This document shows, in pieces, positions 5,674 to 37,799 of a stretch of 64,000 nt of DNA. Position 1 is the first letter of the stretch. Each line of letters begins with the position of its first letter. The notes below the pieces were generated by a model, which was not told where the DNA came from, made no database searches, and saw only the letters and a list, made by a program, of their open reading frames with translations. A program made the translations under genes and the position numbers. The stretch is from Escherchia phage Stokescottia: the sequence record OR896820.1, one strand, 5' to 3'.

Positions 5674-6441
5674 TTATTCAGCAGCCGCAGCTTTTGCATC
5701 CAGTTTAGCACGCTTAGCGGCACCATCATAGTCCTTAGCAACCAGACCACGACGAGACAGCATAGATTTAACACCACGCTCAGACTTACCAGTTTTCTCA
5801 GCGATCTCAGCAACAGTCATGTTAACCAGATCTAGACCTTCTAACAGATCTTCACGAGTTTTAGCACTTGAAGTTTCCTGTACCGGCATAGCAGCAATAC
5901 GACCTTCACGAAGCAGGCTCAGAGCTTTACCACGGATCTGCTTAATATTGCGACCGAAGTGAGCAGCGATAGCTTCAATAGTAGCACCAGCAACAACCTG
6001 ATTAACAAAATCAGTTTCTTCATCCGGAGTGAAGGAACGAACAGCAGCAGCTTTTTCAGTTGGTTTAACAGAAGCGGTCATTTCCAGACTCAGAATCTTA
6101 CCTTGTACCTGCTTAGCACCGAACTGACCACCAGCTACAGCAGCAGCGATTTCAGCATAGGTATACTGACCAGCATGAGCATTCAGGAAATCAACCAGTT
6201 CAGCTTCCTGCTCAGGAGTCCACGGGGATTTCTGTACTTCGTTAGCTTTCTGTACTTCAAAACCTTCTTTACGCAGTTTAGAGCCAACAGAGCGAGCGGT
6301 AACGTCTTTGCCAGTTTCAGCGGCCAGTTCAGCAGCGATAGCAGCTACTTGTTCTTGAGAGATTACAGCAACACCCAGAGCAGTGGCTTTTGCTTTCAGA
6401 GACTCGGTTACACCTTCTACGTTCCAGTTCAGTTTAGACAT
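5674..6441 (-). CDS. putative DNA-binding protein with four tandem ~40-aa HTH-like repeats
   Basis: 255 aa, Ala-rich; recurring pattern ...EIAxxxGxxxxxVxxKxxSL... Confidence 0.45.
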   Translation of the reverse strand: MSKLNWNVEGVTESLKAKATALGVAVISQEQVAAIAAELAAETGKDVTARSVGSKLRKEGFEVQKANEVQKSPWTPEQEAELVDFLNAHAGQYTYAEIAAAVAGGQFGAKQVQGKILSLEMTASVKPTEKAAAVRSFTPDEETDFVNQVVAGATIEAIAAHFGRNIKQIRGKALSLLREGRIAAMPVQETSSAKTREDLLEGLDLVNMTVAEIAEKTGKSERGVKSMLSRRGLVAKDYDGAAKRAKLDAKAAAAE

Positions 6442-7204
6442 TATTATTTTTCTCCAATAGTTCTTTAATCGACAGGATTTCTATCCCATTCGTTTCGGCT
6501 TTCTTATAAGATGAGGAAGAACGTTTTGATTCATCCTCACAGATTAGGTATTTGACGTCTTTGGTAACGGATTTCTTAACCGTATATCCTAGACCTTCTA
6601 AATAGTTTGTTGCATCCGTTCGATTTGCAAAATCTTGCAAAGATCCGGTAATACATACCACGATTCCATTTGGCTGGGCAACTAAATCATCAGTAACGAC
6701 AGTTTTAGCTTTAGCACCAGTTGAGAATTTCCACGGTAGTTCGATAACATCCTTGCCTTGTGGGGAATTTAGCCAGGCTTTGTAGTTTTCTCCAGCCTTG
6801 CCGTCAGCCTTCACATCGTGGAAGCTAGTGCAATTTTGGGATAATTTCTTTGCTGCAACCTCTCCGATTAGAGGGATTCCTAAAGAACCGAGAACTGAAC
6901 CAAAGTCAATGTCTCCGCGAACTTTAGTATTTAATTCGCTAATTAACTTAGCTGCAACCTTGCTACCCACGGCTCTAACTAAATCTTCTTCGGTTAGGTA
7001 AAATAGTTCTGAAATCTTCGTCAGCTCCAGCTTCTCAATAGTTTTTGGGCCAAAGCCCTTTAACTTCATTTTTGTACAGAAGTTCTCAATTAACTTACTT
7101 GATTGCGCTGGACAGTTGGACTTATTCCTACAGAATAATTGTCCGTTGACAAGATCTAGCTTAGAACCACAAGAGGGACATTGTGTTGGAATTTCGATTT
7201 TCAT
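6434..7204 (-). CDS. ligB: NAD-dependent DNA ligase, C-terminal part (Zn finger, HhH, BRCT)
   Basis: CPSCGSKLDLVNGQLFCRN..C zinc finger and BRCT-like tail; ATG at 7204 preceded by ATAAATTGATAAGGAAG box. Confidence 0.75.
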   Translation of the reverse strand: MKIEIPTQCPSCGSKLDLVNGQLFCRNKSNCPAQSSKLIENFCTKMKLKGFGPKTIEKLELTKISELFYLTEEDLVRAVGSKVAAKLISELNTKVRGDIDFGSVLGSLGIPLIGEVAAKKLSQNCTSFHDVKADGKAGENYKAWLNSPQGKDVIELPWKFSTGAKAKTVVTDDLVAQPNGIVVCITGSLQDFANRTDATNYLEGLGYTVKKSVTKDVKYLICEDESKRSSSSYKKAETNGIEILSIKELLEKNNNV

Positions 7205-7234
7205 CAAATTTCTTCCTTATCAATTTATATAAAT

Positions 7235-7263
7235 ATTATAGCAAGTATTTAAGCATTTAGCAA
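7235..7263 (-). promoter_or_regulatory. early-type promoter between the two ligase halves
   Basis: On minus strand TTGCTA, 17-nt spacer, TATAAT, then ATTTATATAAATTGATAAGG box. Confidence 0.6.
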
Positions 7264-7406
7264 CTACAATTTTAACTAACTTTGCTTACCCTCGCCATAA
7301 CTTTCTATCCCTCAACTGAATGATAATAGTATATACCTAAGCGGCGAAAATGTCAATAACCACTTTATAATTCCGATATGGTAGATGGGTAGCAAAGGGT
7401 TATGTA

Positions 7407-8378
7407 TTAATCGTATACTCGCTCTACTATGCACGGGATTACACCACCAGCACGAATTACTCGAATCTGGCAACCGATCTCTAGATCAAGAGAGTTAATA
7501 TAATCAACGTTATTAAGAGTCGCTTTAACAATTGTAGCATCATCAATAATTACCGGTTCGAAATAACCAACTGGAGTTACTTTACCAGAAGCCCCTACCT
7601 GCCACTCAACTTTAGTAAGAGTTGTAATCTCGCCTTCTTCATCCTCTTTAATAGCGAATGCTCCACGAGGGAATTTATTAGTCCAGCCTTCTCGGAAGAA
7701 TTTGTTGTTGTCATTAATACGAACAACTTTACCGTCCGTCGGAATCCATTTAAAGAATGAACGCACATTAACAACTGTTAAGAAGTCTTCATTCTCTAGC
7801 CAAAGCATATCTTTTAAATATGCTTCTGTAATACCTACAGATTCAGCAGAACACTGGATACCATATGCAACGAAGATTAAACCACCTTCCCCGATACGTT
7901 GTACGAAATCATCGCTATCTTTGAGGTTAATAGCACCAGAGGCAAAGTTACGTTTATTCTCTACTTCTTTTGTAATTAGAACTTCACCAGTGATTTGAGT
8001 AGGTACTTTTTGGGAAATCTTTTTAGGGATGTTCAGCAATCTTACGTTGCTTGTGACATCATTCCCTAGAATACCGTTACCACGAGTTAGTGCTTGAACA
8101 AATTCTCCATTAATATATAACAGAGAAATCGCACAACCATCTAATTTATCAGTTTCTACCTGACCTAATGGGTTAAACGGAGGTTTATCTCCACGATTAT
8201 AATAAACTTTCTGTAAAGAATACATACGATACAGATGTGGAATATCACCCTTAGGCCCGATCTCTTCTTCTAACGGGAAGCGTTTTACCAGGCAATCATA
8301 CTCCTCATCAGAGATTAAAGACATGCCTTGATAATATGCTTCTTGACAGCGTTTAATAAATTCTTTTACATTAGTCAT
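7407..8378 (-). CDS. ligA: NAD-dependent DNA ligase, N-terminal adenylation/OB part
   Basis: 323 aa; active-site KxDG motif in TDKLDGCAISLLY; separate ORF from the Zn/BRCT half. Confidence 0.8.
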   Translation of the reverse strand: MTNVKEFIKRCQEAYYQGMSLISDEEYDCLVKRFPLEEEIGPKGDIPHLYRMYSLQKVYYNRGDKPPFNPLGQVETDKLDGCAISLLYINGEFVQALTRGNGILGNDVTSNVRLLNIPKKISQKVPTQITGEVLITKEVENKRNFASGAINLKDSDDFVQRIGEGGLIFVAYGIQCSAESVGITEAYLKDMLWLENEDFLTVVNVRSFFKWIPTDGKVVRINDNNKFFREGWTNKFPRGAFAIKEDEEGEITTLTKVEWQVGASGKVTPVGYFEPVIIDDATIVKATLNNVDYINSLDLEIGCQIRVIRAGGVIPCIVERVYD

Positions 8379-8651
8379 TTATTCTGCCTCATAGTACGTG
8401 GGCTGTCTAGTGGACCCGTGCCATGTATAGTTTTTGCAAAGATGCAAATATGTAGTTTTTACTAGCCTATCTGACAACGGAGAGTATATTTCAGCTGTTA
8501 ATACTTCTTTTTCGTAATGAAGTGAAATCAGCTTATACCCACTTCTAGTTTTAGTATACTTTTCTCCATTAATCTTCTCCTCCCACATAAGTATAAGAGG
8601 CTGTCCGATGTATGGGAAAGGTTTAAGTGTACTTATATTTATCTTTTTCAC
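8379..8651 (-). CDS. hypothetical protein
   Basis: 90-aa ORF, apparent GTG start with GAGAGG SD, abuts ligase start. Confidence 0.4.
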   Translation of the reverse strand: MKKINISTLKPFPYIGQPLILMWEEKINGEKYTKTRSGYKLISLHYEKEVLTAEIYSPLSDRLVKTTYLHLCKNYTWHGSTRQPTYYEAE

Positions 8652-8681
8652 TTTGCAACCCTCTCATTAATTTATATAAAT

Positions 8682-8711
8682 ATTATATAACAAAACTGAG
8701 TTGAAAGCAAA
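8682..8711 (-). promoter_or_regulatory. early-type promoter
   Basis: Minus strand TTTGCT, 18-nt spacer, TATAAT, then ATAAATTAATGAGAGGG box. Confidence 0.55.
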
Positions 8712-8723
8712 TACATTTATAAA

Positions 8724-8757
8724 TAAAAAAGCCAAGAACTAGGCATTCTTGGCTTTG
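8724..8757 (-). terminator. rho-independent terminator
   Basis: Hairpin GCCAAGAA/TTCTTGGC flanked by A6 on plus strand (U-run on minus). Confidence 0.6.
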
Positions 8758-9047
8758 AGTTCTTCAGCTCGTTTCTGTACTTCATGTAAAACCTCAGATT
8801 CGCTAAGAATCTGTGTAAATGCATAGAAAAGCTGTGATGTTGTTTCTAGGGTGTAAGGAAAAGAGAAGCCAGATTTCGTTGGAAACCATTCATCATTAAT
8901 ATCAAGAAGCCAGTAACGAATACCCATGTATAGATTCCCACGAAATTCAGATACTGTTAATCTTACTTGTTCTCCCTCCTTCTCCCAAAGTATGATGGAC
9001 TGGTCATCAACGTGTCCTTCATAGTTTTGATTTACCTGTTCGCTCAT
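8739..9047 (-). CDS. hypothetical protein
   Basis: 102-aa ORF. Confidence 0.4.
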   Translation of the reverse strand: MSEQVNQNYEGHVDDQSIILWEKEGEQVRLTVSEFRGNLYMGIRYWLLDINDEWFPTKSGFSFPYTLETTSQLFYAFTQILSESEVLHEVQKRAEELKAKNA

Positions 9048-9065
9048 TTACATATCCCAAATACA

Positions 9066-9090
9066 CAAAAAGCCCCATATAGGGGCTAAT
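9066..9090 (-). terminator. terminator-like hairpin
   Basis: AAAAAGCCCC ATATA GGGGC hairpin with adjacent A/U-run. Confidence 0.45.
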
Positions 9091-9097
9091 TGGTTTC

Positions 9098-9394
9098 TTA
9101 TCGGCCTACTGGAGAAGCACGATCTAACTCTGATTGGAGGCTAGTCACACGACGGACTTTCTCGACAGGAATAAAACGGAAGCTATCATTAGTACGAGAG
9201 AAGACAAGGATTTCATCATCTTTCGCTTTACGAATACGTTCACGTTTAATACGCTCAGCCAGATATTTATCTTGGGCTGGATCAAATTCCATCGTACCCT
9301 GAAGGTACGTGGTTCCTTTCTGACGAAGTTTCTCGTAATGAAGATAAAACTCACCAAATTTTTCACATTGTGCGATAATTTCAGCTTTGGTCAT
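9098..9394 (-). CDS. hypothetical protein
   Basis: 98-aa ORF. Confidence 0.4.
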   Translation of the reverse strand: MTKAEIIAQCEKFGEFYLHYEKLRQKGTTYLQGTMEFDPAQDKYLAERIKRERIRKAKDDEILVFSRTNDSFRFIPVEKVRRVTSLQSELDRASPVGR

Positions 9395-14503: not shown

Positions 14504-14956
14504 TTACTGAATTGATTCCCTACCATATAATTGGCCCCTAAACATCTTGGCCATAGAACATGCAACTTCATAGTTATCATATGTTCCTTTAACTACTCGT
14601 TTACGATTAATAGTAAATACTACTTGCCAGTTCTTACTACCAGAAGGGTAAACATGCATTCCTTTCTTATATTTGGTATTTCTTAGATTACCAGTTACTG
14701 TCTGATCCCTAAGATTTTCAATACGATCATCGCCTTTTATAGTGTTCTCATGATCTACCAAATCAGGTAAGTATCCATGATGCATTAAGAAGATAGCTCT
14801 GTGTCGGAGCATAGTTCTACTCCCTAGAGAAATACGGTAATAACCATTCCCCGTTGAAACACAACATTCCTTGCCTGCATTTCTTCCTGTAGTTCTAAAT
14901 AATTTTCCATCTTCATATCGGAAATTATCTAAAAGTTCTTGTTGTGTGAGCGACAT
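14504..14956 (-). CDS. HNH homing endonuclease
   Basis: HNH motif HHGYLPD..VDHENTIKGDDRIENLR; ATG at 14956 has GGAGG SD. Confidence 0.75.
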   Translation of the reverse strand: MSLTQQELLDNFRYEDGKLFRTTGRNAGKECCVSTGNGYYRISLGSRTMLRHRAIFLMHHGYLPDLVDHENTIKGDDRIENLRDQTVTGNLRNTKYKKGMHVYPSGSKNWQVVFTINRKRVVKGTYDNYEVACSMAKMFRGQLYGRESIQ

Positions 14957-15098
14957 CTTTACCTCCAATACATATATTATTACATAATCCATCCAATTTG
15001 TCAATGACAATTTATTCATACTGTCAATTAACTGGAAAGATTAGGTAATAATCCGAGCACTAATAGCCCGGATTATAGAGTTCAGCTAATAAAAATCA

Positions 15099-15488
15099 TT
15101 AGTCACTTAACCCCGGAACATAGATCCCAACACGGTTTAATTGTTCTTTAGCTTCTTTGAGTATATCTGGAGTGTACTCCCAAATATCATCTTCCACCTG
15201 TAAAAGATGGGGCGAACAACCGTCATCAGGCACACGACATATGGCCAAACCACGTGGATGGAACAAAGAGAAATTTAGGGCAACAATTAAACCCATAGCA
15301 GACAATTCATTCCAATCCAATTCCCATTCCCCGGCGTATCCAGACAGGAAAATGCCAATGCATGGATCATCTATTTGCTGCTCCGGAAAAGTGAAGGAGG
15401 CTTGTCTTACCCCCAACCAACGTTGTAGCAGCTTCTCCGCACGTTTCACCAAACTAGGGTCAATCTGACGCCAATATACTTGTTCCAT
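15099..15488 (-). CDS. hypothetical protein, tandem paralog A
   Basis: 129 aa; shares CIGxxL...W.ELDEMGL..ALN..LF.P...Y.PGL pattern with the adjacent ORF. Confidence 0.45.
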   Translation of the reverse strand: MEQVYWRQIDPSLVKRAEKLLQRWLGVRQASFTFPEQQIDDPCIGIFLSGYAGEWELDWNELSAMGLIVALNFSLFHPRGLAICRVPDDGCSPHLLQVEDDIWEYTPDILKEAKEQLNRVGIYVPGLSD

Positions 15489-15497
15489 CCTGCCTCC

Positions 15498-15926
15498 TTA
15501 AGCAGTTAAACCTGGGATCATATACCCGAAACGTCGAAGTTTCTGAATCCCATCATTTACTTCTTCCGGTGAGTAAGACCAACCATAACGTTCATTAACC
15601 TGAAAACCAGGAGATTCACTAGTTTTATAGTTAACAACGAGGCGATGCTTAGCAGGCATAAACAGCTTATAGTTTAACGCAAAAACTAAGCCCATTTCAT
15701 CTAACTCTTTCCAGCCGACAATCTCTTCAAGACCCTCCTCTACCTGAACAATTAAACCAATACAGGGGGCCTCATCAATATCATCTTTAAAAGCAAAGGA
15801 GATTTCGTTATTCTCACACCATATTTTCAAAGAGTTAATAGCCTTATTATACAGGCTAGCTGGGAGAGTACGCCAAAAGTTAACCAAAATTGGGTTAGCT
15901 TCTTTAGAGAATACATTATTAAACAT
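15498..15926 (-). CDS. hypothetical protein, tandem paralog B
   Basis: 142 aa; paralog of 15099..15488. Confidence 0.45.
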   Translation of the reverse strand: MFNNVFSKEANPILVNFWRTLPASLYNKAINSLKIWCENNEISFAFKDDIDEAPCIGLIVQVEEGLEEIVGWKELDEMGLVFALNYKLFMPAKHRLVVNYKTSESPGFQVNERYGWSYSPEEVNDGIQKLRRFGYMIPGLTA

Positions 15927-15928
15927 AT

Positions 15929-16441
15929 TTACACCTTAAATTGTTGTAGGGCTTTACACATTTCAAGATCTGGACTAAATTCTAACATATAGCTAACAGC
16001 TTTTAAATCTTGAAGATTTATTCCAGTCCTACCGTTGACTATAACCGTTGGATACTGATACATCATAGCACCCGCATCGTCAAGCACACACCAATGTTTG
16101 AGCCTATGCTTTTCAACGAAGCGAAGAACAGAATTACCCCTAGATAATCCACCCCCGGTAAAATCCGTTGTACCAAGAAAACGATCGATAAGGCCTAATC
16201 CGGTCATAATCTGAACATTCTCCATCTCATTTCTGACAGAGAACCAAGATGATACTCCAACAATCATTATCGGGGAAGGACGAATAAAGTCCTGAAAAGC
16301 CTTGAGAAGCGGTTTGAAAACCCAGTCACTCCCAAAGAAAATCTTTTCATCATCAGGTGCATGATGGTGGGAGATGCTCGAATTGAGCACCCCATCAATG
16401 TCTAGAAAAATAATTGGAGTATTACTTATTTCCTGATACAT
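15929..16441 (-). CDS. HAD-superfamily phosphatase-like protein
   Basis: 170 aa; HAD motif I IIFLDIDGVLN near N-terminus. Confidence 0.55.
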   Translation of the reverse strand: MYQEISNTPIIFLDIDGVLNSSISHHHAPDDEKIFFGSDWVFKPLLKAFQDFIRPSPIMIVGVSSWFSVRNEMENVQIMTGLGLIDRFLGTTDFTGGGLSRGNSVLRFVEKHRLKHWCVLDDAGAMMYQYPTVIVNGRTGINLQDLKAVSYMLEFSPDLEMCKALQQFKV

Positions 16442-17237
16442 AAGGTCTATCCCCTAAATGAGCTTCTACACGAGCAATAAAATCAGGATCACTGAAAGCA
16501 TCTACCGCACCTTTACTCCAGTAAGGGATACCGCGTTCTTCCAGCTGGTACATCTCACTACGAGTCATACCTTGATAGCCCGGTTCCACCGCTAGGGCAC
16601 TATCATAGTAGTTAACAACCATTAGCTTGGCAGCAGTCAAATTAAGAACAGGAAATAATTCCCAGTAGAAATTAATTACTTGGTTAGAGCAACCAACCAC
16701 AATGATCATATCTTGACTGGTAATACCATCAAAAATATTGTACATCTCCGCATATGCTGGAGCATGCTCTCCAAAGAAGATTACATTAGGTTTAACCCAT
16801 TTATAATCATCTGGATCAATAGAATTGTATCCTACATCAATAATCCGTTTATTGCTACTATTGTAGCTATCAGCTACAACAACCTCTTTTAAATATCCGT
16901 GAATGTGCAGAATGTCACTATGTGAAACGCCAGCACGCTCAATAAGGTCATCAACGTTGGTAGTCAAGTTTACTACTTGACCTGGATATTGTTTATACCA
17001 TTCACCAATACGCAAATGCGCAAGATTGGGTTCAACAGTTTTTAGCTCTTCACGACGCTTGTTGTAAAACATATGGGTTTTATGATAAAAATTACCACGA
17101 AAGGCATGAATATTACATACTTCTTCTAGATCATAATCATCCCACAGTGCTTTACCACTAGCAGTATCAGTACGAAAAGCTCGTACACCACTTTCAACAC
17201 TCAAACCTGCACCGCTAATAATAATTAATCTACGCAT
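16422..17237 (-). CDS. Sir2-family NAD-dependent protein
   Basis: 271 aa; N-terminal Sir2 signature GAGLSVESGVRAFR. Confidence 0.6.
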   Translation of the reverse strand: MRRLIIISGAGLSVESGVRAFRTDTASGKALWDDYDLEEVCNIHAFRGNFYHKTHMFYNKRREELKTVEPNLAHLRIGEWYKQYPGQVVNLTTNVDDLIERAGVSHSDILHIHGYLKEVVVADSYNSSNKRIIDVGYNSIDPDDYKWVKPNVIFFGEHAPAYAEMYNIFDGITSQDMIIVVGCSNQVINFYWELFPVLNLTAAKLMVVNYYDSALAVEPGYQGMTRSEMYQLEERGIPYWSKGAVDAFSDPDFIARVEAHLGDRPYVSGNK

Positions 17238-17451
17238 TTTTCACCTGTTCTCTGAAGTTTTGCCCAATACTGTCTAATAGCTCAGCTAATTCTTTATTGC
17301 CTTTCTCCATTAAGGTATTAGCAATAACTTCTAGCATAGTAGCGCAGGATTCAACACCATCCTTATAGCCAGTTTCCCAGTGCTGCATTAATGCGTTTTC
17401 CAAAGCGGCGTTTAAACCCTTATCTGGTAGCATCGGCTTCGAGAATGCCAT
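17230..17451 (-). CDS. hypothetical protein
   Basis: 73-aa ORF. Confidence 0.35.
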   Translation of the reverse strand: MAFSKPMLPDKGLNAALENALMQHWETGYKDGVESCATMLEVIANTLMEKGNKELAELLDSIGQNFREQVKNA

Positions 17452-17623
17452 AAAGTTTCTCCTCTAGTTCCATAACACGATTTTCATAAGAGGCACGCAA
17501 CTTTTCAATTGCCAGCGCACGCACTGTAACCTCATTAGAATTAATAGCTAATTGGGCCAGGTCTTCTGTTTCCATACGTCCGTTGTAAATTAAGCGATAT
17601 TTAAGATGTTTTACGTTTTTCAT
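17420..17623 (-). CDS. hypothetical protein
   Basis: 67-aa ORF. Confidence 0.3.
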   Translation of the reverse strand: MKNVKHLKYRLIYNGRMETEDLAQLAINSNEVTVRALAIEKLRASYENRVMELEEKLYGILEADATR

Positions 17624-17832
17624 TCTTGTTCCTCAAACATTTCAATTTCTGCATTAGCAATAGAAAGGGCGGGCTCAGATAAGCACAATCCCATCCTAGG
17701 ATCGATCTTCCCTTCGCCAATCCAAGTACTTACTAAACATAATTTAGTTATATCCTCACGGAGAATCGAACCATATGCCCCAGAATCCATAATAAAATAG
17801 ATACGTTCTTTATCTACCTTGTGAACTCTCAT
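17620..17832 (-). CDS. hypothetical protein
   Basis: 70-aa ORF. Confidence 0.35.
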   Translation of the reverse strand: MRVHKVDKERIYFIMDSGAYGSILREDITKLCLVSTWIGEGKIDPRMGLCLSEPALSIANAEIEMFEEQE

Positions 17833-17896: not shown

Positions 17897-17932
17897 AAAA
17901 GCCAGGTCGACTAGCAACCCGGCTGATTAGCT
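17897..17932 (-). terminator. rho-independent terminator after nrdD
   Basis: Minus-strand hairpin AGCCGGG...CCTGGCT followed by UUUUAUUUUAUUU. Confidence 0.55.
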
Positions 17933-19806
17933 TACTTAGCTCGAATATCCTGATGCTTCACTCTGCCCATCACCTCGTGCTGTTTGCCAGGGTTAAATGG
18001 ACGAGCACCTGGATTTCCAAGATACCCACAAACTCGACGAGTTACTTCAAGAGTTTCGGGGTCATGATTACCACAGATAGGGCACTTAAATCCATCTTCG
18101 GATGCTATTGTTTCACCTAAGAATCCACATTTACCACAAGAATCCACTGGAGTATTAATACCAAAGTAATGAACCTTACTAGCCGCATAATTAATAACCC
18201 ATTCCAGTGCATCTGGGAATCGTTTCATATCCGGTAGTTCTACATAGGAAATGCACCCACCAGAAGCAATCGGAGTAAAGTTAGACTCATAATCAAATTT
18301 CACGTTAGGAGCAACTTTACGTTCCACATCAAGGTGGTGAGAGTTAGTGTAGTATCCTTTGGACAGAATATCTTCATGCTCCGGGAAATATTCACGGTCT
18401 AGACGACAAAAACGGTCACATAGGGATTCTGATGGTGTAGCATACAGGCTATAGCCTAACTTAGTTTCTTCCTTCTTCTGATCGACTCTATCCCGCATGT
18501 ACTGCAATACACGCTGAACAAACTTGATGCAGGTCTCGGACATTGTGTCCACATCTTTGCCAAACATGAACTGTAGCATTTCATGGCAACCAATATACCC
18601 TAGAGATACAGAAGCACGGTTATAGAAATGATCGAATACATATTCATCAGGCTCCAAGCGTAACCCAAAGGCTCCTGACATATAGAGGATGGGTGCAGCT
18701 TTAGCTTGGATGTATTTTAAGCGATCAACTCTCCACTCCAATGCTTTTAACGCTGTATCCACACGTAGCTCAAGCAAATCAAAGAATAGATCAATATTTC
18801 CTTCAGCTTCGATAGCAATTCTAGGCAAGTTTACAGAAACAACACCTAAGTTATTACGACCGGCAGTTTCACCGTCTTCTGTAGCAGCTAGGAATGAACG
18901 GCAGCCCATAGAAACTTTATAGTCTCCAGTAACTTCCACAACCTTATCATAGCTGATATAATCTGGATACATACGTTCAGACGTACATTTCATAGCTAAC
19001 TTCTTGATGTCATAATTAACATCTCCTGGTTTCATGTTAACACCATCACGAAGTACAAATACCAGTTTCGGGAAGATAGCTGTACGTTTATTGATACCTA
19101 AACCATCCATGCGTACTTTCAGTATTGCTTTCTGTACTAGACGTGCTTCCCAAGAAGTTCCTAGACCAAAACCAAAGGCAATAAAGGGACTCTGACCATT
19201 AGAGTTAAACATGGTATTGATTTCATATTCTAAACCCTGACAAGCGTCATAGACTTCTTTTTCAGTCATCTCCGTAGCCATTACGGATGCTTTGGCTTCA
19301 TCCTTAGTCCAACGTTTTGCAAACGCATGATTTTTGTCATAGGATTTACGAACATAAGGAGCTAATACTTCATCAAGGCGATCTACAGAGGTACCACCAT
19401 ACTGATGGGAGCTAACTTGAGTGATAATCTGAGCAGTAATAGCCGCCGCAGTAGTGATAGAGTTTGGAGTGCTAATTTCAGCATTACCAACCTTCATACC
19501 ATTCTTCAACATATCTTCCAGGGCTACCAGACAACAGTTAGTCATGCCTAATGCAGCATAATCAGCATCATGGAAATGAATATCCCCAATCATATGAGCA
19601 TTTCGAATCTGAATTGGCATTTCTTCTAGAATTAGATACTTACTCAATTCACCTGCAAGCATATCCCTTTGTGTAGGGAAACGTTCTGAGGGTTTATTGG
19701 CATTATTAAATAACAGTTCTTCATCTGCTGACCCTTCGATAATCTCTTTGCAGTTTCTAATTAATGCCTGCATTTCTTTATATTTTAGTTCTTCATTACG
19801 ATTCAT
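17932..19806 (-). CDS. nrdD: anaerobic ribonucleoside-triphosphate reductase
   Basis: 624 aa; C-terminal glycyl-radical motif RRVCGYLGNPGARPFNPGKQ; Cys-rich zinc site CGKCGF...CPICG. Confidence 0.9.
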   Translation of the reverse strand: MNRNEELKYKEMQALIRNCKEIIEGSADEELLFNNANKPSERFPTQRDMLAGELSKYLILEEMPIQIRNAHMIGDIHFHDADYAALGMTNCCLVALEDMLKNGMKVGNAEISTPNSITTAAAITAQIITQVSSHQYGGTSVDRLDEVLAPYVRKSYDKNHAFAKRWTKDEAKASVMATEMTEKEVYDACQGLEYEINTMFNSNGQSPFIAFGFGLGTSWEARLVQKAILKVRMDGLGINKRTAIFPKLVFVLRDGVNMKPGDVNYDIKKLAMKCTSERMYPDYISYDKVVEVTGDYKVSMGCRSFLAATEDGETAGRNNLGVVSVNLPRIAIEAEGNIDLFFDLLELRVDTALKALEWRVDRLKYIQAKAAPILYMSGAFGLRLEPDEYVFDHFYNRASVSLGYIGCHEMLQFMFGKDVDTMSETCIKFVQRVLQYMRDRVDQKKEETKLGYSLYATPSESLCDRFCRLDREYFPEHEDILSKGYYTNSHHLDVERKVAPNVKFDYESNFTPIASGGCISYVELPDMKRFPDALEWVINYAASKVHYFGINTPVDSCGKCGFLGETIASEDGFKCPICGNHDPETLEVTRRVCGYLGNPGARPFNPGKQHEVMGRVKHQDIRAK

Positions 19807-27526: not shown

Positions 27527-27811
27527 ATGCGGATTTATAACTCAAATTCATTAGGATTTAAACCATTGAGAAAACGTGCACAATCACCTCGTCAAATAAG
27601 AAAGGCTAATATTGGTGAGCCAGAGACACGACTTCCACCTCCTCCAGAACAACGTTTAGTTTATCTGGACGAAGAATTAGCGGAATGCGAAAGAAAAGCT
27701 CAAGAAGAGATTGAGCGTAAGAAAATGTGTACTGCTCCAGCCTACTCCAAAGGGGCTTATCAGTATATCTATACAGCCGAGGAGGCTAAAGATGCGGGGC
27801 GTAAAAAATGA
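27527..27811 (+). CDS. hypothetical protein
   Basis: 94-aa ORF. Confidence 0.4.
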   Translation: MRIYNSNSLGFKPLRKRAQSPRQIRKANIGEPETRLPPPPEQRLVYLDEELAECERKAQEEIERKKMCTAPAYSKGAYQYIYTAEEAKDAGRKK

Positions 27812-28257
27812 AGATTACTGAATTTAAAGGTACTTATAGTTTCTTATCAAACTTTTATTTATCACCAATTACTTTCGAATATCTAAATGAAATATGGCAT
27901 GCTGATACTGTAGAACATGCTTTTCAGGCTATGAAATCCGACCAAAAAGATGATGTAGCTCATGTACTGCGCTCCCTAAATGCAGGAGTTGCCAAACGTA
28001 GAGGACGTAAATTAACTCTACGCTCTGACTGGGATAAGGTAAAAGATGATGTAATGCTAGAGCTTTTACGGTTAAAGTTTGCAATCCCTGATTTGAGAGA
28101 CAAACTGTTAGCAACAAAAAATGCAACTTTGATCGAAGGAAATACCTGGGGAGATACATATTGGGGTGTTTGCCGAGGCATTGGGGATAATACTCTAGGT
28201 GTTCTTTTGATGCAGGTAAGGTCTGAAATTAAAAGAAGCTTACAGTTAATAAATTAA
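27808..28257 (+). CDS. NADAR-domain protein (YbiA-like)
   Basis: 149 aa; FLSNFY...EHAFQAMK...W...DTYWG pattern typical of YbiA/NADAR. Confidence 0.75.
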   Translation: MKITEFKGTYSFLSNFYLSPITFEYLNEIWHADTVEHAFQAMKSDQKDDVAHVLRSLNAGVAKRRGRKLTLRSDWDKVKDDVMLELLRLKFAIPDLRDKLLATKNATLIEGNTWGDTYWGVCRGIGDNTLGVLLMQVRSEIKRSLQLIN

Positions 28258-32971: not shown

Positions 32972-33000
32972 TTGCTAAATGCTTATAAATTCTGTATAAT
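32972..33000 (+). promoter_or_regulatory. early-type promoter reading into a non-coding region
   Basis: TTGCTA, 17-nt spacer, TGTATAAT; no ORF follows for ~900 nt. Confidence 0.6.
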
Positions 33001-33224
33001 ATATTCATAAATTAGGGAACAGCGAGCCGATTACGCTGAGTGCAGAATCCCAACCGGAGCGCATTGAATAGAGTCGGTGGGTTAGTTGTAAAACTAGTAC
33101 ACAGGGGGCGGCAATTCCGGTTAGTGGCTAGAACGTGTAAAATGAGGCGTCTGAAACCTCTCCCCTAAACTCTTCTCTAATTTATAAATAGTGGGGTGTG
33201 GAAATCACTTATGTAGTAACACTG

Positions 33225-33295
33225 CCGTCCTAGTATAATTGGTATTATCAAGCCGTAACTGGTGGAAGATGTAGGTTCGAATCCTACGGTCGGTA
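33225..33295 (+). ncRNA. degenerate tRNA-like element
   Basis: Canonical T-arm GTAGG TTCGAAT CCTAC but no canonical acceptor or anticodon stems. Confidence 0.25.
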
Positions 33296-33797
33296 AGAAC
33301 TGGATAACTGGTGCTTTTAACGTAAAAGCTTCCGAGGTTAGTTGCGCACTGCCTAAACCACGCGGTAGTTGGTTCCAGACTAACCAACCAGTCTGCTGAA
33401 TAGTTTTATTACGATTTAACTATGTCCAGGCTAAAGAAGAACTTTAGAAGGTATTCTAGGATAGTGAAGTTCTTTCTCCATATCGGAGTAGTTTTTCAAG
33501 CTATCCACAAAGTGGGAAATGCTGACATGAGAGATGTCACTAATGGTGCACAATAGCACAGGTAATTCGCGATAATTCCTGTTGAGTAGCAGCAAAAGGC
33601 GGGAAGTCATGACCCCAAGCCTAACCGAGTCCTCAATATACCGCAGGACATAACCACTAAGTCACCCTGACTTAAACTGGAAAATAATAGACGTTACCGT
33701 ATTTTGTCTTGAAATACTTAATGAGTGGGACTTATGACTCTCCCGGTATCGTCTGTATTTTTAAGAGTTTTTACGAGAGTTCTTAAAAATACTTAAA

Positions 33798-33872
33798 CGG
33801 GGTGTAGTCTAAGGGAGAGGCAGGAGTCTTCTAAATTCCTTTATGCAGGTTCGAATCCTGTCACCTCGGCCA
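33798..33872 (+). tRNA. tRNA-Arg(TCT)
   Basis: Hand-folded cloverleaf: acceptor CGGGGTG/CACCTCG, anticodon loop CTTCTAA, T-loop TTCGAAT, encoded CCA. Confidence 0.65.
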
Positions 33873-33906
33873 ATTTTATTAACTGTAACTAAAACAAAGG
33901 AAATAT

Positions 33907-34854
33907 ATGTTTGCTACTAAAAACACTAAAGAACTGACTTATGAGCAAAAATTAATGCGTAATATCAAACGTTGGGGTATTGGGGCTGCAGTTGGTTTGG
34001 TAGGTTTAGTTCTGGCTCTTAACTCTTACACTGTTGTTCAAGACGGTACTGTTAAAACCCAGACTTTCCTGGGTAAAGTTGACCCTAGCCCAGTATTACC
34101 CGGCTTTCATATTGTAAATCCTTTTGCTTCTTTCGATACTTTTAGTACTAAAGATATTGCTCTAAAATTAGATAAACTTCAGGTTCCTAGTCAGGATAAG
34201 TTTAAATCCACTGTTGACCTGACTGTTATGTTGCAGTTTGATGGTTCTAAGGCACCGATTAACCGTATTAATGCAGGTACTCAGGATCAAGCATTAGACA
34301 AATATGTAACTGAAAAATTACTGTCTACTATTCGTGAGTTTGGTAAGTCTGTACCTAAAGCACAAGATTTATTTGATGCTAAAATTCAGGCTCAATTGCA
34401 AACTGCAATTCAACAGGAAGTTGAAGAGTATGCACGCCCATATGGTTACACAGTTAAGCAGGTGTTTCTTCAGGATATTACTTTGCCACCGGTAATCATG
34501 GAACAGGTACAGAATACCAAAGTTCGTGAAGAGCAAGTTAATGCTGCGAAAGCTGAGCTTGCTCGTGTTGAACAGGAAGCACAGCAAAAAGTTAAACAAG
34601 CAGAAGCAGATCGTGAAGCTCGCAATAACCAAGCTATTGCTAATGAACGTGACGCAGATGCTAAACTGTACGCAGCTAAGAAAGAAGCTGAAGCTAACGC
34701 CGCACTGCAACGTACCATTACTCCTGAGATGATTCGTTGGAAACAACTGGAAGTTGAGATGATTCGTGCTCAGAAATATCAAGGTGGTGTACCTCAGACT
34801 GTAGTTGGCACTGGCTATGATGGTCAAATGATCATGGATATGCGTAACAAGTAA
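33907..34854 (+). CDS. SPFH/band-7-like membrane protein
   Basis: 315 aa; N-terminal TM helix, then domain followed by Ala/Glu-rich coiled coil. Confidence 0.5.
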   Translation: MFATKNTKELTYEQKLMRNIKRWGIGAAVGLVGLVLALNSYTVVQDGTVKTQTFLGKVDPSPVLPGFHIVNPFASFDTFSTKDIALKLDKLQVPSQDKFKSTVDLTVMLQFDGSKAPINRINAGTQDQALDKYVTEKLLSTIREFGKSVPKAQDLFDAKIQAQLQTAIQQEVEEYARPYGYTVKQVFLQDITLPPVIMEQVQNTKVREEQVNAAKAELARVEQEAQQKVKQAEADREARNNQAIANERDADAKLYAAKKEAEANAALQRTITPEMIRWKQLEVEMIRAQKYQGGVPQTVVGTGYDGQMIMDMRNK

Positions 34855-34878
34855 TAGTTACACGTAATCTTCGAACTA

Positions 34879-34915
34879 AGCCCGCGTTTTCTCCGAGAGC
34901 GCGGGCTTTTCTGTA
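34879..34915 (+). terminator. rho-independent terminator
   Basis: AAGCCCGCG...CGCGGGCTT hairpin followed by TTTCTGTATTT. Confidence 0.6.
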
Positions 34916-34920
34916 TTTAA

Positions 34921-34968
34921 GGAAAAAGAAAAAGCCCCTTACCTTTCGGCAGGGGCTTTTGTTTTTTG
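34921..34968. terminator. bidirectional terminator between convergent genes
   Basis: AGCCCCTT...AGGGGCT hairpin flanked by an A-run upstream and a T-run downstream. Confidence 0.6.
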
Positions 34969-35174
34969 GTTTAGAACCACACTCTCGGTGTACAGCAACC
35001 ACCTATATGGGAGGCCAACCTTGACTGAAAATCTACTCTAGGGGGCAGGATAAGAGTAGGCTTAAAGGCAAACGGATTGAACGCCGGTATTTGCGTAAAC
35101 ATTGCTGGAGAGCAACAACGTGCTACAGGCATTGGGCAGCACGAAACAGATTTTCTGCAACACATAATTCCTCC

Positions 35175-35591
35175 TTAGGAGTTATTACCACCATTTTGAG
35201 CTTTTGCAACTTGGCTTTGGCAGAAGCTATTAAACTTACCCATAAGTGATACAAGCTGCTTCCCGTCCTCTGTCTTTGCGAAGTCTTCGAAAAGGGCTAG
35301 TACTGCCTGTCCTTCCGCAGAAACCTGCGGTTGTTGGGTTTGTTGCTGAACTTGCTGCTGCGGCATCTGTTGCTGCATTTGTTGAGGCATTTGCGACTGC
35401 CCGCTCATTTGCTGCATCATTTGCATAGGACTCACACTTCCAGGGTTTTGCTGGAGTTGTTGCTGCATCTGTTGCGCTTCTGCTAAACGCTGTTGCAACT
35501 GTTGTAAGTAGGGGTTATCCAGACCCGGCATGGGCTGCTGGGAGCCCATACTTTGATTAAGTCCGTTATTTACAAAACCATATTTACTCAT
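35175..35591 (-). CDS. glutamine-rich hypothetical protein
   Basis: 138 aa; long Q/M-rich low-complexity core. Confidence 0.45.
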   Translation of the reverse strand: MSKYGFVNNGLNQSMGSQQPMPGLDNPYLQQLQQRLAEAQQMQQQLQQNPGSVSPMQMMQQMSGQSQMPQQMQQQMPQQQVQQQTQQPQVSAEGQAVLALFEDFAKTEDGKQLVSLMGKFNSFCQSQVAKAQNGGNNS

Positions 35592-35612
35592 AATGGGCTC
35601 CTCCCCTTAATA

Positions 35613-36605: not shown

Positions 36606-36812
36606 TTTTTGACACCTCCTAGTATATAGAAAATGTGTGTCTCTTTGATCACTCATCCATAACATATACTTTACACTACCCCAGCGAAAATGTCAAGGGG
36701 TCTTTAAAAATTGCCCCTGGATTTTTAGTGGGGTCACAAATTTTGGTCCTCACCACTTATCTGCTACCCTTAAGTGCCCTATGATTTTCCTCTAAAAAGT
36801 TAAAAAATTTGA

Positions 36813-36841
36813 TTGCTTGAATGCTAAATTCTCTGTATAAT
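36813..36841 (+). promoter_or_regulatory. early-type promoter
   Basis: TTGCTT, 17-nt spacer, TGTATAAT, then CTATAAATTTGAGAGAGG box. Confidence 0.6.
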
Positions 36842-36871
36842 ATATCTATAAATTTGAGAGAGGAACCAAAT

Positions 36872-37390: not shown

Positions 37391-37396
37391 TATAAT
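37367..37396 (+). promoter_or_regulatory. early-type promoter driving the tRNA island
   Basis: TTGCTA, 18-nt spacer, TATAAT; overlaps the 3' end of the Toprim ORF; tRNA-Ser begins ~16 nt after the -10. Confidence 0.55.
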
Positions 37397-37411
37397 ATAT
37401 CTTATAAATTC

Positions 37412-37500
37412 GGAAGAATAGCATAACGGTATTGCAGCAGATTGCTAATCTGTCGGTTTGAAATATAGCCTTGTGGGTTCGATTCCCACTTCTTCCGCCA
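37412..37500 (+). tRNA. tRNA-Ser(GCT)
   Basis: Acceptor GGAAGAA/TTCTTCC, anticodon loop TTGCTAA, long variable arm, encoded CCA. Confidence 0.7.
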
Positions 37501-37505
37501 AATTT

Positions 37506-37583
37506 GGTTCTCAAGCTCATATGGTATGAGCACCCGGCTCATAACCGGAAGGTACGTAGGTTCGAATCCTCGGGGAGCCACCA
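37506..37583 (+). tRNA. tRNA with CAT anticodon (Met or Ile2)
   Basis: Acceptor GGTTCTC/GGGAGCC, D-stem GCTC/GAGC, anticodon loop CTCATAA; T-stem imperfect. Confidence 0.55.
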
Positions 37584-37601
37584 ATTAAATAGAGGTCACA
37601 A

Positions 37602-37790: not shown

Positions 37791-37799
37791 GGAGACTAT

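What the first reader, a model, noticed from the sequence alone, without database searches (positions are those of the whole stretch)
15929..17237. Sir2-like NAD-dependent protein next to a HAD phosphatase in the replication block
A Sir2-family ORF (GAGLSVESGVRAFR) overlaps a HAD-motif ORF (FLDIDGVLN). Together with the NADAR protein at 27808-28257 this gives the early region several NAD/ADP-ribose-handling enzymes. Such enzymes could modify host or phage proteins, reverse ADP-ribosylation, or counter NAD-depleting defence systems. This is inference from domain content only.
Basis: inference. Interest (0 to 1): 0.6.

Follow-up and report, generated by a model that had tools for sequence, protein, structure and literature searches.

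The report
T5-like phage sirtuin–HAD phosphatase pair
A T5-like phage carries a zinc-less CobB-like sirtuin gene directly upstream of a small HAD phosphatase gene; the pair is real, conserved in T5-like phages and already annotated, with a published but untested prediction that it removes phosphates from broken RNA using NAD+.

Summary
On the minus strand, a 271-aa Sir2 ORF (16422-17237; Pfam SIR2 4e-25) overlaps by 20 nt a 170-aa HAD ORF (15929-16441; Pfam HAD_SAK_2 7.5e-20). The window is a Tequintavirus (T5-like) phage, 96-98% identical to known genomes, and these are the T5.102/T5.105 genes. Sir2 sits immediately upstream of the HAD in 21 of 21 T5-like loci surveyed. The overlap comes from a lineage-specific 107-bp deletion that keeps both ORFs intact. 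The pairing is already published: Iyer et al. 2022 list "sirtuin + Swiss-army-knife-like HAD" in T5-like phage SP15 and predict a KptA/Tpt1-like, NAD+-dependent removal of RNA 2'-phosphates. I found no experimental test. New details: the whole phage Sir2 clade lacks the zinc-ribbon cysteines but keeps every catalytic residue and the class-III YxxR motif. The HAD is an intact cap-less phosphatase. T5-like genomes encode no RNA ligase or kinase. Distant HAD relatives sit next to NAD+ salvage, Macro and Nudix genes about as often as next to RNA ligases. The NADAR gene is an unlinked accessory gene; a NADAR from T5-like phages Bas32/33 has been shown to counter DarTG1, but I did not compare it with the window's. 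Verdict: ordinary, already-known feature with an open function; moderate interest.

The parts
16422..17237 (-). Sir2 (sirtuin) gene, 271 aa; equivalent of T5.102. CobB-like, zinc-less, with a complete catalytic set
   Evidence: ORF. Pfam SIR2 4.2e-25; phrog_2162 6e-120; NCBIfam CobB-type models 1e-25 to 8e-29, all below their curated cut-offs; best PDB match E. coli CobB 1.3e-17. Across 120 homologues G9AG, S13, F21-R22, Y58/R61/R62, N94, D96, H113-G114, F154-F155, E157 (G156 0.90), G182, S184 and N209 are 98-100% conserved, and there is no cysteine tetrad.
15929..16441 (-). Stand-alone cap-less HAD phosphatase gene, 170 aa (HAD_SAK_2 family); equivalent of T5.105
16422..16441 (-). 20-nt Sir2/HAD overlap created by a 107-bp deletion of the ancestral spacer. 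The HAD now starts at an ATG inside the Sir2 3' end, with AGGGG 8 nt upstream
   Evidence: DNA alignment with phages FGS017 and phiP4 and sequence read. Both reading frames survive the deletion. This arrangement occurs in 3 of 21 T5-like loci.
15498..15926 (-). DUF7415 protein, paralogue a (142 aa; T5.106), 2 bp downstream of the HAD; function unknown
15099..15488 (-). DUF7415 protein, paralogue b (129 aa; T5.107), 32% identical to paralogue a
   Evidence: Pfam DUF7415 1.5e-31; alignment A4. A one-domain homologue lies just after rnlA in Aeromonas phage Aeh1.
17230..17832 (-). Three small ORFs (73, 67 and 70 aa) between the nrdD terminator and Sir2, probably co-transcribed; function unknown
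   Evidence: ORFs; PHROGs 5827, 5236 and 20147, all of unknown function. The middle ORF is conserved in T5 and Epseptimavirus.
17900..17924 (-). Terminator-like hairpin after nrdD that marks the upstream edge of the Sir2-HAD-DUF7415 transcription unit
   Evidence: Consensus scan: 10-bp stem with 6 GC pairs plus a T-run. T5 has a terminator and a promoter annotated at the same place.

Best explanation
Two co-transcribed early genes encode an active sirtuin and an active phosphatase that most likely work together as an NAD+-consuming phosphate-removal module. This is the role Iyer et al. (2022) predicted for this phage sirtuin clade. In that model the sirtuin transfers ADP-ribose from NAD+ onto a phosphate monoester. 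The proposed substrate is a 2'-phosphate left on RNA, such as tRNA, after a host ribonuclease cuts it and the cyclic phosphate is opened. The reaction releases nicotinamide and ADP-ribose 1'',2''-cyclic phosphate, as KptA/Tpt1 does. The HAD phosphatase then does one of two things. It either removes the remaining terminal phosphate on the RNA, or, which I consider somewhat more likely from its other genomic partners, it dephosphorylates the ADP-ribose-phosphate by-product to plain ADP-ribose. Shown here: domain identities, intact active sites under purifying selection, loss of the zinc ribbon across the clade, strict adjacency in T5-like phages, and recurrence of phosphoesterase partners next to this sirtuin clade in unrelated phages. 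Inferred: the substrates and the chemistry.
For: Linkage. Sir2 is immediately upstream of the HAD in 21 of 21 T5-like loci. The pairing survives a gene-order inversion in a divergent T5-related contig (L010: HAD, a 116-aa ORF, then Sir2). It recurs in a Prevotellaceae MAG contig (L102, 1.6 kb apart on the same strand, with a zinc-less Sir2). A 107-bp deletion in this lineage preserved both ORFs exactly. Partners of the same Sir2 clade elsewhere are all phosphate-end or ADPR-processing enzymes. Ro1 has Rnl1 RNA ligase, cREC, P-loop kinase, then Sir2. APECc02 has Rnl1, cREC, then Sir2. Jumbo phage JP4 has Sir2, a Nudt16-like Nudix, then cREC. The Ro1 cassette has a ligase, a kinase and a cyclic-phosphate enzyme but no phosphomonoesterase, and Sir2 occupies that slot. 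Both enzymes look active. The conserved YxxR pocket binds anionic groups in class III sirtuins (established knowledge for SIRT5 and CobB) and could bind a phosphate. Sirtuin and Tpt1 chemistry are parallel: an oxygen nucleophile attacks C1'' of NAD+, then the ribose 2''-OH attacks the acyl carbon or the phosphorus (established knowledge). The prediction is published (PMC9503650 section 3.7.3). For the HAD acting on an ADPR-phosphate: its relatives overlap or abut a Prs-like + NAMPT-family pair, NatV (70 bp away) and Macro (overlapping). ADPR-1''-phosphate phosphatases are now known phage counter-defence enzymes, although those are Macro-type (doi 10.64898/2026.01.28.702374).
Confidence: 0.4

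Rival explanations
1. The Sir2 is an ordinary CobB-like protein lysine deacylase (deacetylase or desuccinylase). It resets acylation of host or phage proteins early in infection. The HAD next to it has an unrelated job, for example in nucleotide metabolism.
For: The best solved relatives are E. coli CobB, archaeal Sir2 and SIRT5. NCBIfam CobB models give 1e-25 to 8e-29. All deacylase residues are conserved in the clade, including catalytic His113, the FGE loop and the succinyl-lysine YxxR motif. The genes sit in a nucleotide-metabolism and replication region (nrdD, nrdAB, td, frd). The Aeh1 HAD lies between td and nrdA.1.
Against: This does not explain why the clade is repeatedly flanked by cREC, HAD, kinase, RNA ligase or Nudix genes in unrelated phages. 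It also does not explain why the HAD linkage survives rearrangement. The whole clade has lost the zinc-binding cysteines, which canonical deacylases need. All NCBIfam scores are far below the equivalog cut-offs.
Confidence: 0.3
2. The pair is an NAD+/ADP-ribose counter-defence module. The HAD dephosphorylates ADPR-1''-phosphate, the product of RES-type NAD+ phosphorylases, or a related ADPR-phosphate, as a non-homologous analogue of the Macro-type Adpp. The Sir2 handles NAD+-derived molecules rather than RNA or proteins.
For: In phages ChuuTotoro and ABPH49 the HAD_SAK_2 gene overlaps by 4 nt a Prs-family gene, which is followed by a NAMPT-family gene. That is the operational definition of NARP1. 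A HAD lies 70 bp from NatV in L084 and overlaps a Macro gene in L086, and arrays containing NatV, NAMPT and Macro upstream of the HAD occur in L078 (also with an Rnl2-type ligase between them) and NatV-NAMPT in L054. Macro-type ADPR-1P phosphatases in NARP1 operons defeat aRES. T5-like phages depend on an NAD+-dependent DNA ligase.
Against: The window has no Adps, Namat, NAMPT, NatV or Macro gene to receive the ADPR. The HAD relatives in those contexts are only 22-40% identical to the T5 HAD and may differ in substrate. A sirtuin consumes NAD+, which is hard to reconcile with defending the NAD+ pool. RNA-repair genes are nearly as frequent near the HAD. The aRES paper does not mention HAD phosphatases.
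Confidence: 0.15
3. The Sir2 is an ADP-ribosyltransferase or NADase. It modifies host targets as T4 Alt/Mod enzymes do, or lowers host NAD+.
For: Some sirtuins (SirTM, SIRT4/6) ADP-ribosylate proteins (established knowledge). Defence-type SIR2 NADases also lack the zinc ribbon (from memory). Early expression would suit host takeover.
Against: There is no PADLOC match to any defence SIR2 model. No Macro partner is present, as SirTM systems have. The catalytic His and the YxxR motif are of deacylase type. NAD+ depletion would harm a phage that uses an NAD+-dependent ligase.
Confidence: 0.08
4. The adjacency is historical only: two unrelated accessory genes sit side by side in a conserved T5-like gene block.
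For: The whole nrdD-to-origin-binding-protein block is syntenic in Markadamsvirinae. Sir2 occurs in about 1007 phage records but the HAD in only about 498. The spacer is variable and can hold one or two small ORFs.
Against: The Sir2 allele has been swapped or has diverged to 51% identity while the HAD stays 90% identical, yet the adjacency is kept. The pairing recurs with inverted order (L010) and in a Bacteroidota contig (L102). The 107-bp deletion kept both ORFs intact.
Confidence: 0.07

Closest known systems
Phage sirtuin + 'Swiss-army-knife-like' HAD neighbourhood, type 3 of Iyer, Burroughs, Anantharaman & Aravind 2022 (Viruses 14:1977; prototype Escherichia phage SP15)
   Same: This is the same gene pair. 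SP15 is a T5-like phage whose DUF7415 protein is 92% identical to the window's. The paper describes the sirtuin gene joined to a SAK-like HAD phosphatase and predicts KptA-like removal of RNA 2'-phosphate.
   Different: Nothing differs structurally. The window carries a minority variant in which a 107-bp deletion makes the two genes overlap. The paper's function is a computational prediction only.
E. coli CobB / class III sirtuins (SIRT5)
   Same: Rossmann fold; GAGxS, FR, TxNxD and HG motifs; FGE loop; and the YxxR motif that recognises negatively charged acyl-lysines. CobB is the best PDB match (1.3e-17).
   Different: No zinc-binding cysteines anywhere in the phage clade. Scores are far below the CobB equivalog cut-offs. 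There is a phage-specific C-terminal extension, and the genomic partners are phosphoesterases.
KptA/Tpt1 RNA 2'-phosphotransferase
   Same: Proposed functional analogue: NAD+-dependent removal of a phosphate monoester with release of nicotinamide and ADP-ribose cyclic phosphate. The Sir2 clade appears in the same kind of RNA-repair gene clusters.
   Different: Unrelated fold: KptA belongs to the ART superfamily. No biochemical evidence exists for the sirtuin.
T4 polynucleotide kinase-phosphatase (Pnkp) phosphatase domain
   Same: HAD-superfamily DxD phosphatase with no cap, used in phage tRNA repair.
NARP1-AP ADPR-1''-phosphate phosphatase Adpp (Macro domain; Osterman et al. 2026 preprint)
   Same: A phage phosphatase encoded with NAD+-reconstitution genes. 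Distant HAD_SAK_2 relatives occupy the equivalent position next to a Prs-like/NAMPT-like pair.
   Different: Different fold (HAD versus Macro). The window has no NARP1 genes. The substrate of the HAD is untested.
Defence-associated SIR2 NADases (ThsA, DSR1/2, SIR2-HerA)
   Same: SIR2 fold without a zinc ribbon (from memory); an NAD+-centred conflict context.
   Different: No PADLOC model matches. The phage protein is CobB-like in sequence, small and single-domain, and encoded by the phage rather than the host.

Membership tests
Sirtuin (SIR2, PF02146) | Profile match above the curated threshold | tested here: met
   89.2 bits against a cutoff of 24, covering profile positions 1-178 of 180.
Sirtuin (SIR2, PF02146) | NAD+-binding and catalytic residues (GAGxS, FR, N/D of TxNxD, catalytic His-Gly) | tested here: met
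   G9AG, S13, F21-R22, N94, D96 and H113-G114 are present and 98-100% conserved in 120 homologues. They are invariant across 7 divergent phage lineages plus CobB.
Sirtuin (SIR2, PF02146) | Four-cysteine zinc ribbon in the small domain | tested here: not met
   The segment aligned with CobB's C...CxCC contains no cysteines. No cysteine tetrad occurs in 120 homologues, in 7 divergent lineages or in the L102 MAG homologue.
Class III sirtuin (CobB/SIRT5-type deacylase) | YxxR motif for acidic acyl-lysine recognition | tested here: met
   F57-Y58-N59-K60-R61-R62 aligns with CobB FYNARR. Y58, R61 and R62 are 100% conserved in 120 homologues. R61 is replaced only in jumbo phage JP4.
Class III sirtuin (CobB/SIRT5-type deacylase) | NCBIfam CobB equivalog score, and lysine deacylase activity | tested here: not met
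   The best NCBIfam scores are 90-100 bits against cut-offs of 243-320. Enzyme activity cannot be tested with these tools.
HAD superfamily phosphatase | Motifs I (DxD), II (S/T), III (K/R) and IV (DD) | tested here: met
   D14, D16, S64/S65, R101 and D121 are invariant and D122 is >=90% conserved.
HAD superfamily phosphatase | Rossmannoid HAD fold | tested here: met
   [not shown]
HAD_SAK_2 (PF18143) / 'Swiss Army Knife' RNA repair proteins | Pfam match above threshold | tested here: met
   72.2 bits against a cutoff of 27.5, covering 1-138 of 139. All 36 homologue clusters carry PF18143.
HAD_SAK_2 (PF18143) / 'Swiss Army Knife' RNA repair proteins | Multi-domain SAK architecture (HAD fused to other RNA-repair domains) | tested here: not met
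   All homologues found are stand-alone proteins of 149-188 aa carrying only PF18143.
Phage sirtuin RNA-repair system (Iyer et al. 2022) | A sirtuin of the distinct phage clade adjacent to a phosphate-end-processing enzyme | tested here: met
   Sir2 is directly upstream of the HAD in the window and in 21 of 21 T5-like loci. It is 58-64% identical to the V5- and Mydo-type sirtuins that sit beside Rnl1 and cREC (tblastn; alignment).
Phage sirtuin RNA-repair system (Iyer et al. 2022) | An RNA ligase or polynucleotide kinase encoded by the same genome to complete the repair | tested here: not met
   tblastn with Rnl1, cREC and kinase queries finds nothing in the window or in 100 kb of the 97.6%-identical phiP4. 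None is annotated there.
Phage sirtuin RNA-repair system (Iyer et al. 2022) | NAD+-dependent removal of RNA 2'-phosphate | not testable with these tools
   This needs biochemistry. No experimental report was found.
NARP1-AP (Adps + Namat + ADPR-1P phosphatase) | Adps and Namat genes in an operon with the phosphatase | tested here: not met
   There is no Prs-like or NAMPT-like sequence in the window or phiP4. The feature is met only for distant HAD relatives in ChuuTotoro and ABPH49.
Defence-type SIR2 NADase | Match to a PADLOC SIR2 effector model | tested here: not met
   No PADLOC family at E<=0.01.
NADAR / AdfN anti-DarTG1 (for the ORF at 27808-28257) | NADAR domain; orthology with the tested AdfN of Bas32 | tested here: inconclusive
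   The Pfam NADAR match is met (79 bits against a cutoff of 35.1). I did not compare the window protein with the Bas32 protein. The literature shows that a NADAR from T5-like Bas32/33 neutralises DarT1.

The most novel reading that the evidence does not exclude
The stand-alone HAD_SAK_2 phosphatases of phages are ADP-ribose-phosphate phosphatases, acting on ADPR-1''P or the opened form of ADPR cyclic phosphate. They would be a non-homologous counterpart of the Macro-type Adpp recently shown to defeat RES-type NAD+ phosphorolysis. The zinc-less phage sirtuins would be the first sirtuins that ADP-ribosylate a phosphate group rather than deacylate lysine. Together, Sir2 and the HAD would form a self-contained 'NAD+-powered phosphatase' whose by-product is recycled to ADPR. 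The same HAD would plug into NARP1, NatV or Macro modules in other phages.
Probability: 0.2. Interest if true: 0.7.

Novelty: already known. Interest (0 to 1): 0.4.

Why it matters
If the published prediction is right, this clade would be the first sirtuins shown to act on a phosphate ester, a new reaction class for a heavily studied enzyme family. It would also add an NAD+-dependent branch to phage RNA repair and counter-defence. The pair occurs in essentially every T5-like phage, including many therapeutic candidates. T5 genetics and E. coli defence-system panels already exist, so the question can be tested directly. As a finding in this window, though, it is a conserved, already-annotated gene pair with a published hypothesis, and it is not a discovery.

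Tried and rejected

2. A Foldseek search of the HAD model against the PDB gave only weak hits (best E 7e-3, TM about 0.4). A sequence search of the PDB gave none.

3. I searched for an RNA ligase, cREC or polynucleotide kinase in the window and in phiP4. None was found.

4. I searched for NARP1/NARP2 genes and tested the candidate ORFs at 59679-63009 for NARP3 PnuC/NadR. There were no Pfam hits.

5. I tried to separate Adps/Namat from Prs/NadV for the HAD-linked pair using the PDB. The Prs-like protein is closest to canonical PRPP synthetases, so this stays unresolved.

6. The first neighbour census suggested that NAD-type partners dominate. After I found an RNA ligase my seeds had missed, the iterated census showed comparable frequencies: 12 versus 7 of 52 groups. 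I therefore dropped the claim that the HAD is specifically NAD-linked. There was no proper background control.

7. Bacterial and archaeal genome contexts (46 loci) were too diverse to be informative.

8. The literature search for zinc-less CobB-like sirtuins was uninformative.

9. The idea that the Sir2 rebuilds NAD+ from ADPR-1''P plus nicotinamide was considered and rejected. It is thermodynamically unfavourable and inconsistent with an adjacent phosphatase (reasoning only).
Full report
**What is there**

The window is a T5-like phage of the genus Tequintavirus. The region 15400-17700 is 96-98% identical to Escherichia phage phiP4, Salmonella phage FGS017 and many others, with 445 matching phage records.

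The minus strand carries one gene block:
- nrdD (17932-19806), followed by a terminator-like hairpin (17924-17900);
- three small ORFs of unknown function (17230-17832);
- a 271-aa Sir2 ORF (16422-17237);
- a 170-aa HAD ORF (15929-16441);
- two paralogous DUF7415 ORFs (15498-15926 and 15099-15488);
- an HNH endonuclease ORF (14504-15019).

In phage T5 the corresponding genes are T5.102 (Sir2), T5.105 (HAD) and T5.106/107 (DUF7415). In T5 they are annotated between a predicted promoter after nrdD and a predicted terminator after T5.107.

**Checking the observation**

- The Sir2 ORF matches Pfam SIR2 at 4.2e-25, phrog_2162 at 6e-120, and E. coli CobB as its best solved relative at 1.3e-17.
- The HAD ORF matches Pfam HAD_SAK_2 at 7.5e-20.
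- The ORF at 27808-28257 matches Pfam NADAR at 6.3e-22.
- The two ORFs overlap by 20 nt.

Aligning the junction with relatives shows that the overlap comes from a clean 107-bp deletion of the spacer. The HAD's native ATG was lost. The gene now starts at an ATG that already lay inside the Sir2 3' end, 8 nt after an AGGGG. Sir2 gains a new three-residue tail and a stop codon drawn from the HAD's first codons. Both reading frames survive.

Among 21 T5-like loci from IMG/VR, Sir2 is always immediately upstream of the HAD. The gap is -20 nt in 3 loci, 155-159 nt in 11 loci and 279-337 nt in 7 loci.

**The sirtuin**

I aligned 120 homologues of at least 50% identity, nearly all from phages or phage-like contigs, together with CobB. 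The NAD+-binding and catalytic residues are 98-100% conserved: G9AG, S13, F21-R22, N94, D96, H113-G114, F154-F155, E157 (with G156 at 0.90), G182, S184 and N209. The motif F57-Y58-N59-K60-R61-R62 is equally conserved and aligns with the YxxR of CobB and SIRT5, which binds acidic acyl groups.

The four zinc-ribbon cysteines are absent from the entire clade. They are also absent from seven divergent lineages: Tequintavirus, Epseptimavirus, Mydovirus, Vequintavirus, a T5-related metagenome contig, a Vibrio schizoT4 phage and jumbo phage JP4. A Prevotellaceae MAG homologue lacks them too.

No PADLOC defence SIR2 model matches. NCBIfam CobB models match well below their equivalog cut-offs. The protein is therefore an apparently active, CobB-derived sirtuin with a remodelled, zinc-less small domain.

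Within conserved synteny the Sir2 allele is unusually divergent. Compared with Epseptimavirus phage 1-23, NrdD is 97% identical, the HAD 90%, the DUF7415 proteins 71-74%, and Sir2 only 51%. The window's Sir2 is 60% identical to that of the unrelated myovirus Ro1. This points to in-place allele exchange or rapid divergence.

**The HAD**

The family is small: 36 clusters at 90% identity, all stand-alone proteins of about 150-190 aa, mostly from phages.
- All four HAD motifs are invariant or nearly so: D14, D16, S64/S65, R101 and D121, with D122 at 90% or more.
- An AlphaFold model is confident (pLDDT 95.1).

phrog_18062 matches the C-terminal half of the HAD, yet it is labelled 'Sir2'. This explains why many records, including RefSeq T5.105, annotate two 'Sir2' genes.

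**What is already published**

- jumbo phages, with 2H, Nudix, cREC and PIN genes;
- V5- and Mydo-like phages, with a T4-like tRNA ligase, cREC, a nucleotide kinase, MazG and a calcineurin-like phosphoesterase;

SP15 is a T5-like phage, so the finding is that third type. The authors predict that the sirtuin acts like KptA/Tpt1. It would remove RNA 2'-phosphates by ADP-ribosyl transfer, and the partner enzymes would either open cyclic phosphates or process the ADPR>P by-product.

I found no experimental test of this in the library.

**Independent checks of that picture**

Pfam scans of annotated neighbours confirm the pattern.
- Ro1: Rnl1-type RNA ligase, cREC, P-loop (AAA_33) kinase, Sir2, then DNA ligase.
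- APECc02: Rnl1, cREC, then Sir2.
- JP4: Sir2, a Nudt16-like Nudix with a 4-nt overlap, then cREC.
- The Vibrio schizoT4 Sir2 has no recognisable partner.

The HAD linkage also recurs outside canonical T5-like phages.
- In a T5-related contig the order is inverted: HAD, a 116-aa ORF, then Sir2 (L010).
- In a Prevotellaceae MAG contig a zinc-less Sir2 lies 1.6 kb downstream of a HAD_SAK_2 gene on the same strand.

Against a complete RNA-repair role in T5-like phages, tblastn with Rnl1, cREC and kinase queries finds nothing in the window or in 100 kb of phiP4. Nothing of the kind is annotated there either.

**What else the HAD associates with**

In Serratia phage ChuuTotoro and Acinetobacter phage ABPH49, a HAD_SAK_2 gene overlaps by 4 nt a Prs-family gene, and a NAMPT-family gene follows. 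That gene pair is the operational definition of NARP1. I could not distinguish Adps/Namat from Prs/NadV by sequence.

I surveyed 79 viral loci, which collapse to 52 HAD groups at 70% identity.
- The HAD lies 70 bp from a NatV (Nmnat-Nudix) gene in L084.
- It overlaps a Macro-domain gene in L086.
- L078 has NatV, NAMPT and Macro upstream of the HAD on the same strand (with an Rnl2-type ligase also between them), and L054 has NatV and NAMPT.

After I corrected my seeds, which had missed an Rnl2-type ligase, the counts were as follows:

| Distance from the HAD | Groups with an NAD/ADPR-type neighbour | Groups with an RNA-repair-type neighbour |
|---|---|---|
| Within 8 kb | 12 of 52 | 7 of 52 |
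| Within 3 kb | 7 | 5 |
| Within 300 bp, same strand | 3 | 0 |

About 33 groups have neither kind of neighbour, and I had no proper background control. This is suggestive, not decisive. Bacterial genome contexts (46 loci) were too diverse to help.

The result is topical. A 2026 preprint shows that phage Macro-domain phosphatases in NARP1 operons convert ADPR-1''-phosphate, made by the aRES defence, back to ADPR. That paper does not mention HAD enzymes. The HAD-Prs-NAMPT arrangement could be a non-homologous equivalent.

The window itself has no NARP1 or NARP2 genes. Four candidate ORFs at its right end (59679-63009) gave no Pfam hit to PnuC or NadR, and phiP4's annotation lists none; I did not search with the Bas30 NARP3 proteins themselves. 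NARP3 was described in the T5-like phage Bas30.

**The NADAR gene**

It lies 11 kb away on the other strand. It is present at 95% identity or more in only about 95 phage records, against about 440 T5-like records with the HAD. A NADAR from the T5-like phages Bas32/33 neutralises DarT1 and restores plaquing on DarTG1 hosts, while T5 itself is DarTG1-sensitive (PMC11825919). NADAR is therefore an independent accessory counter-defence gene and not part of the Sir2-HAD unit.

**Interpretation**

The best-supported reading (confidence about 0.4) is the published one, with a refinement. Sir2 and the HAD form an NAD+-consuming phosphate-removal module. The sirtuin ADP-ribosylates a phosphate monoester, proposed to be an RNA 2'-phosphate. 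The HAD clears either the RNA's remaining terminal phosphate or, as its other partners hint, the ADPR-phosphate by-product.

Four observations support it:
- phosphoesterase and ADPR-processing partners recur around this sirtuin clade;
- the adjacency is strictly kept despite allele replacement, inversion and deletion;
- the anion-binding YxxR pocket is conserved;
- sirtuin and Tpt1 mechanisms are chemically parallel (established knowledge).

Four observations count against it:
- T5-like phages lack a ligase and a kinase;
- the deacylase-type active site is fully retained;
- there is no biochemical precedent;
- the partner domains' functions are themselves only predicted.

The main rival (about 0.3) is a conventional CobB-like deacylase with an unrelated neighbour. 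An NAD+/ADPR counter-defence role centred on the HAD (about 0.15), an ADP-ribosyltransferase or NADase (about 0.08) and mere historical adjacency (about 0.07) remain possible.

**Verdict**

The feature is a conserved gene pair, annotated since the T5 genome, with a published mechanistic prediction. I therefore class it as already known.

The remaining interest lies in the untested function and in three details seen here:
- clade-wide loss of the zinc ribbon with a fully conserved active site;
- the HAD's recurrent association with NAD+ salvage, Macro and Nudix genes;
- the absence of any sealing enzyme in T5-like phages.

Interest 0.4.

Noticed in passing
window 15929-16441; also RefSeq T5.105 (NC_005859 57588-58094): phrog_18062 is labelled 'Sir2 (NAD-dependent deacetylase)' but matches the C-terminal half of the HAD phosphatase (1.1e-57). 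Many phage records, including RefSeq T5, therefore annotate two 'Sir2' genes. This looks like a propagated misannotation.
   Followed up: yes
window 16422-17237 compared with L004 (Salmonella phage 1-23) 3501-4352: Within otherwise conserved synteny the Sir2 allele is only 51% identical between Tequintavirus and Epseptimavirus. NrdD is 97%, the HAD 90% and the DUF7415 proteins 71-74%. The window allele is closer (60%) to that of the unrelated myovirus Ro1. This suggests in-place allele exchange or fast evolution.
   Followed up: partly
L012 (Serratia phage ChuuTotoro ON287369) 6001-9217; L013 (Acinetobacter phage ABPH49 MH533020) 6001-9222: A HAD_SAK_2 gene overlaps by 4 nt a PRPP-synthetase-like gene, which is followed by a NAMPT-family gene. 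This is a NARP1-like operon with a HAD in the place where a 2026 preprint describes a Macro-type ADPR-1''P phosphatase. The arrangement is not mentioned in that paper.
   Followed up: partly
[not shown]
   Followed up: partly
window 14504-15019 (-): An HNH endonuclease ORF (PF13392, 3e-09) lies directly downstream of the DUF7415 pair. A homologous HNH is present in only 5 of the 21 T5-like loci surveyed, so it looks like a mobile homing-endonuclease insertion.
   Followed up: no
window 27808-28257 (+): The NADAR gene is an accessory gene. It is at >=95% identity in about 95 phage records, against about 440 T5-like records with the HAD. A NADAR of the T5-like phages Bas32/33 is an experimentally shown anti-DarTG1 enzyme (AdfN), and T5 itself is DarTG1-sensitive. 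Some records label the gene 'swarming motility protein YbiA' or 'GTP cyclohydrolase II'.
   Followed up: partly
public records OR847503 (Listeria phage LM 4-11-1), MG065662/MG065642 (Campylobacter phages A142/A148), and partial 'Enterococcus faecalis' proteins: Records named for Listeria, Campylobacter or Enterococcus carry sequences 91-96% identical to T5-like genes or 52-57% to this Sir2, which is typical of enterobacterial T5-like and rV5-like phages. These are probably contamination or host mislabelling in the databases.
   Followed up: no
window about 33000-46000 (by correspondence with phiP4 51.5-64.2 kb): The window should contain the large T5-type tRNA gene cluster; about 27 tRNAs are annotated in the near-identical phiP4. 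This matters for any tRNA-damage or repair hypothesis, because the phage can replace cleaved host tRNAs instead of repairing them. I did not scan the window itself for tRNAs.
   Followed up: no
L095 (Escherichia jumbo phage JP4) 3965-5595: A tight Sir2, Nudt16-like Nudix, cREC array with 4-nt overlaps. It is the most compact example seen of the sirtuin with ADPR- and cyclic-phosphate-processing partners. This Sir2 has lost the first Arg of the YxxR motif.
   Followed up: partly
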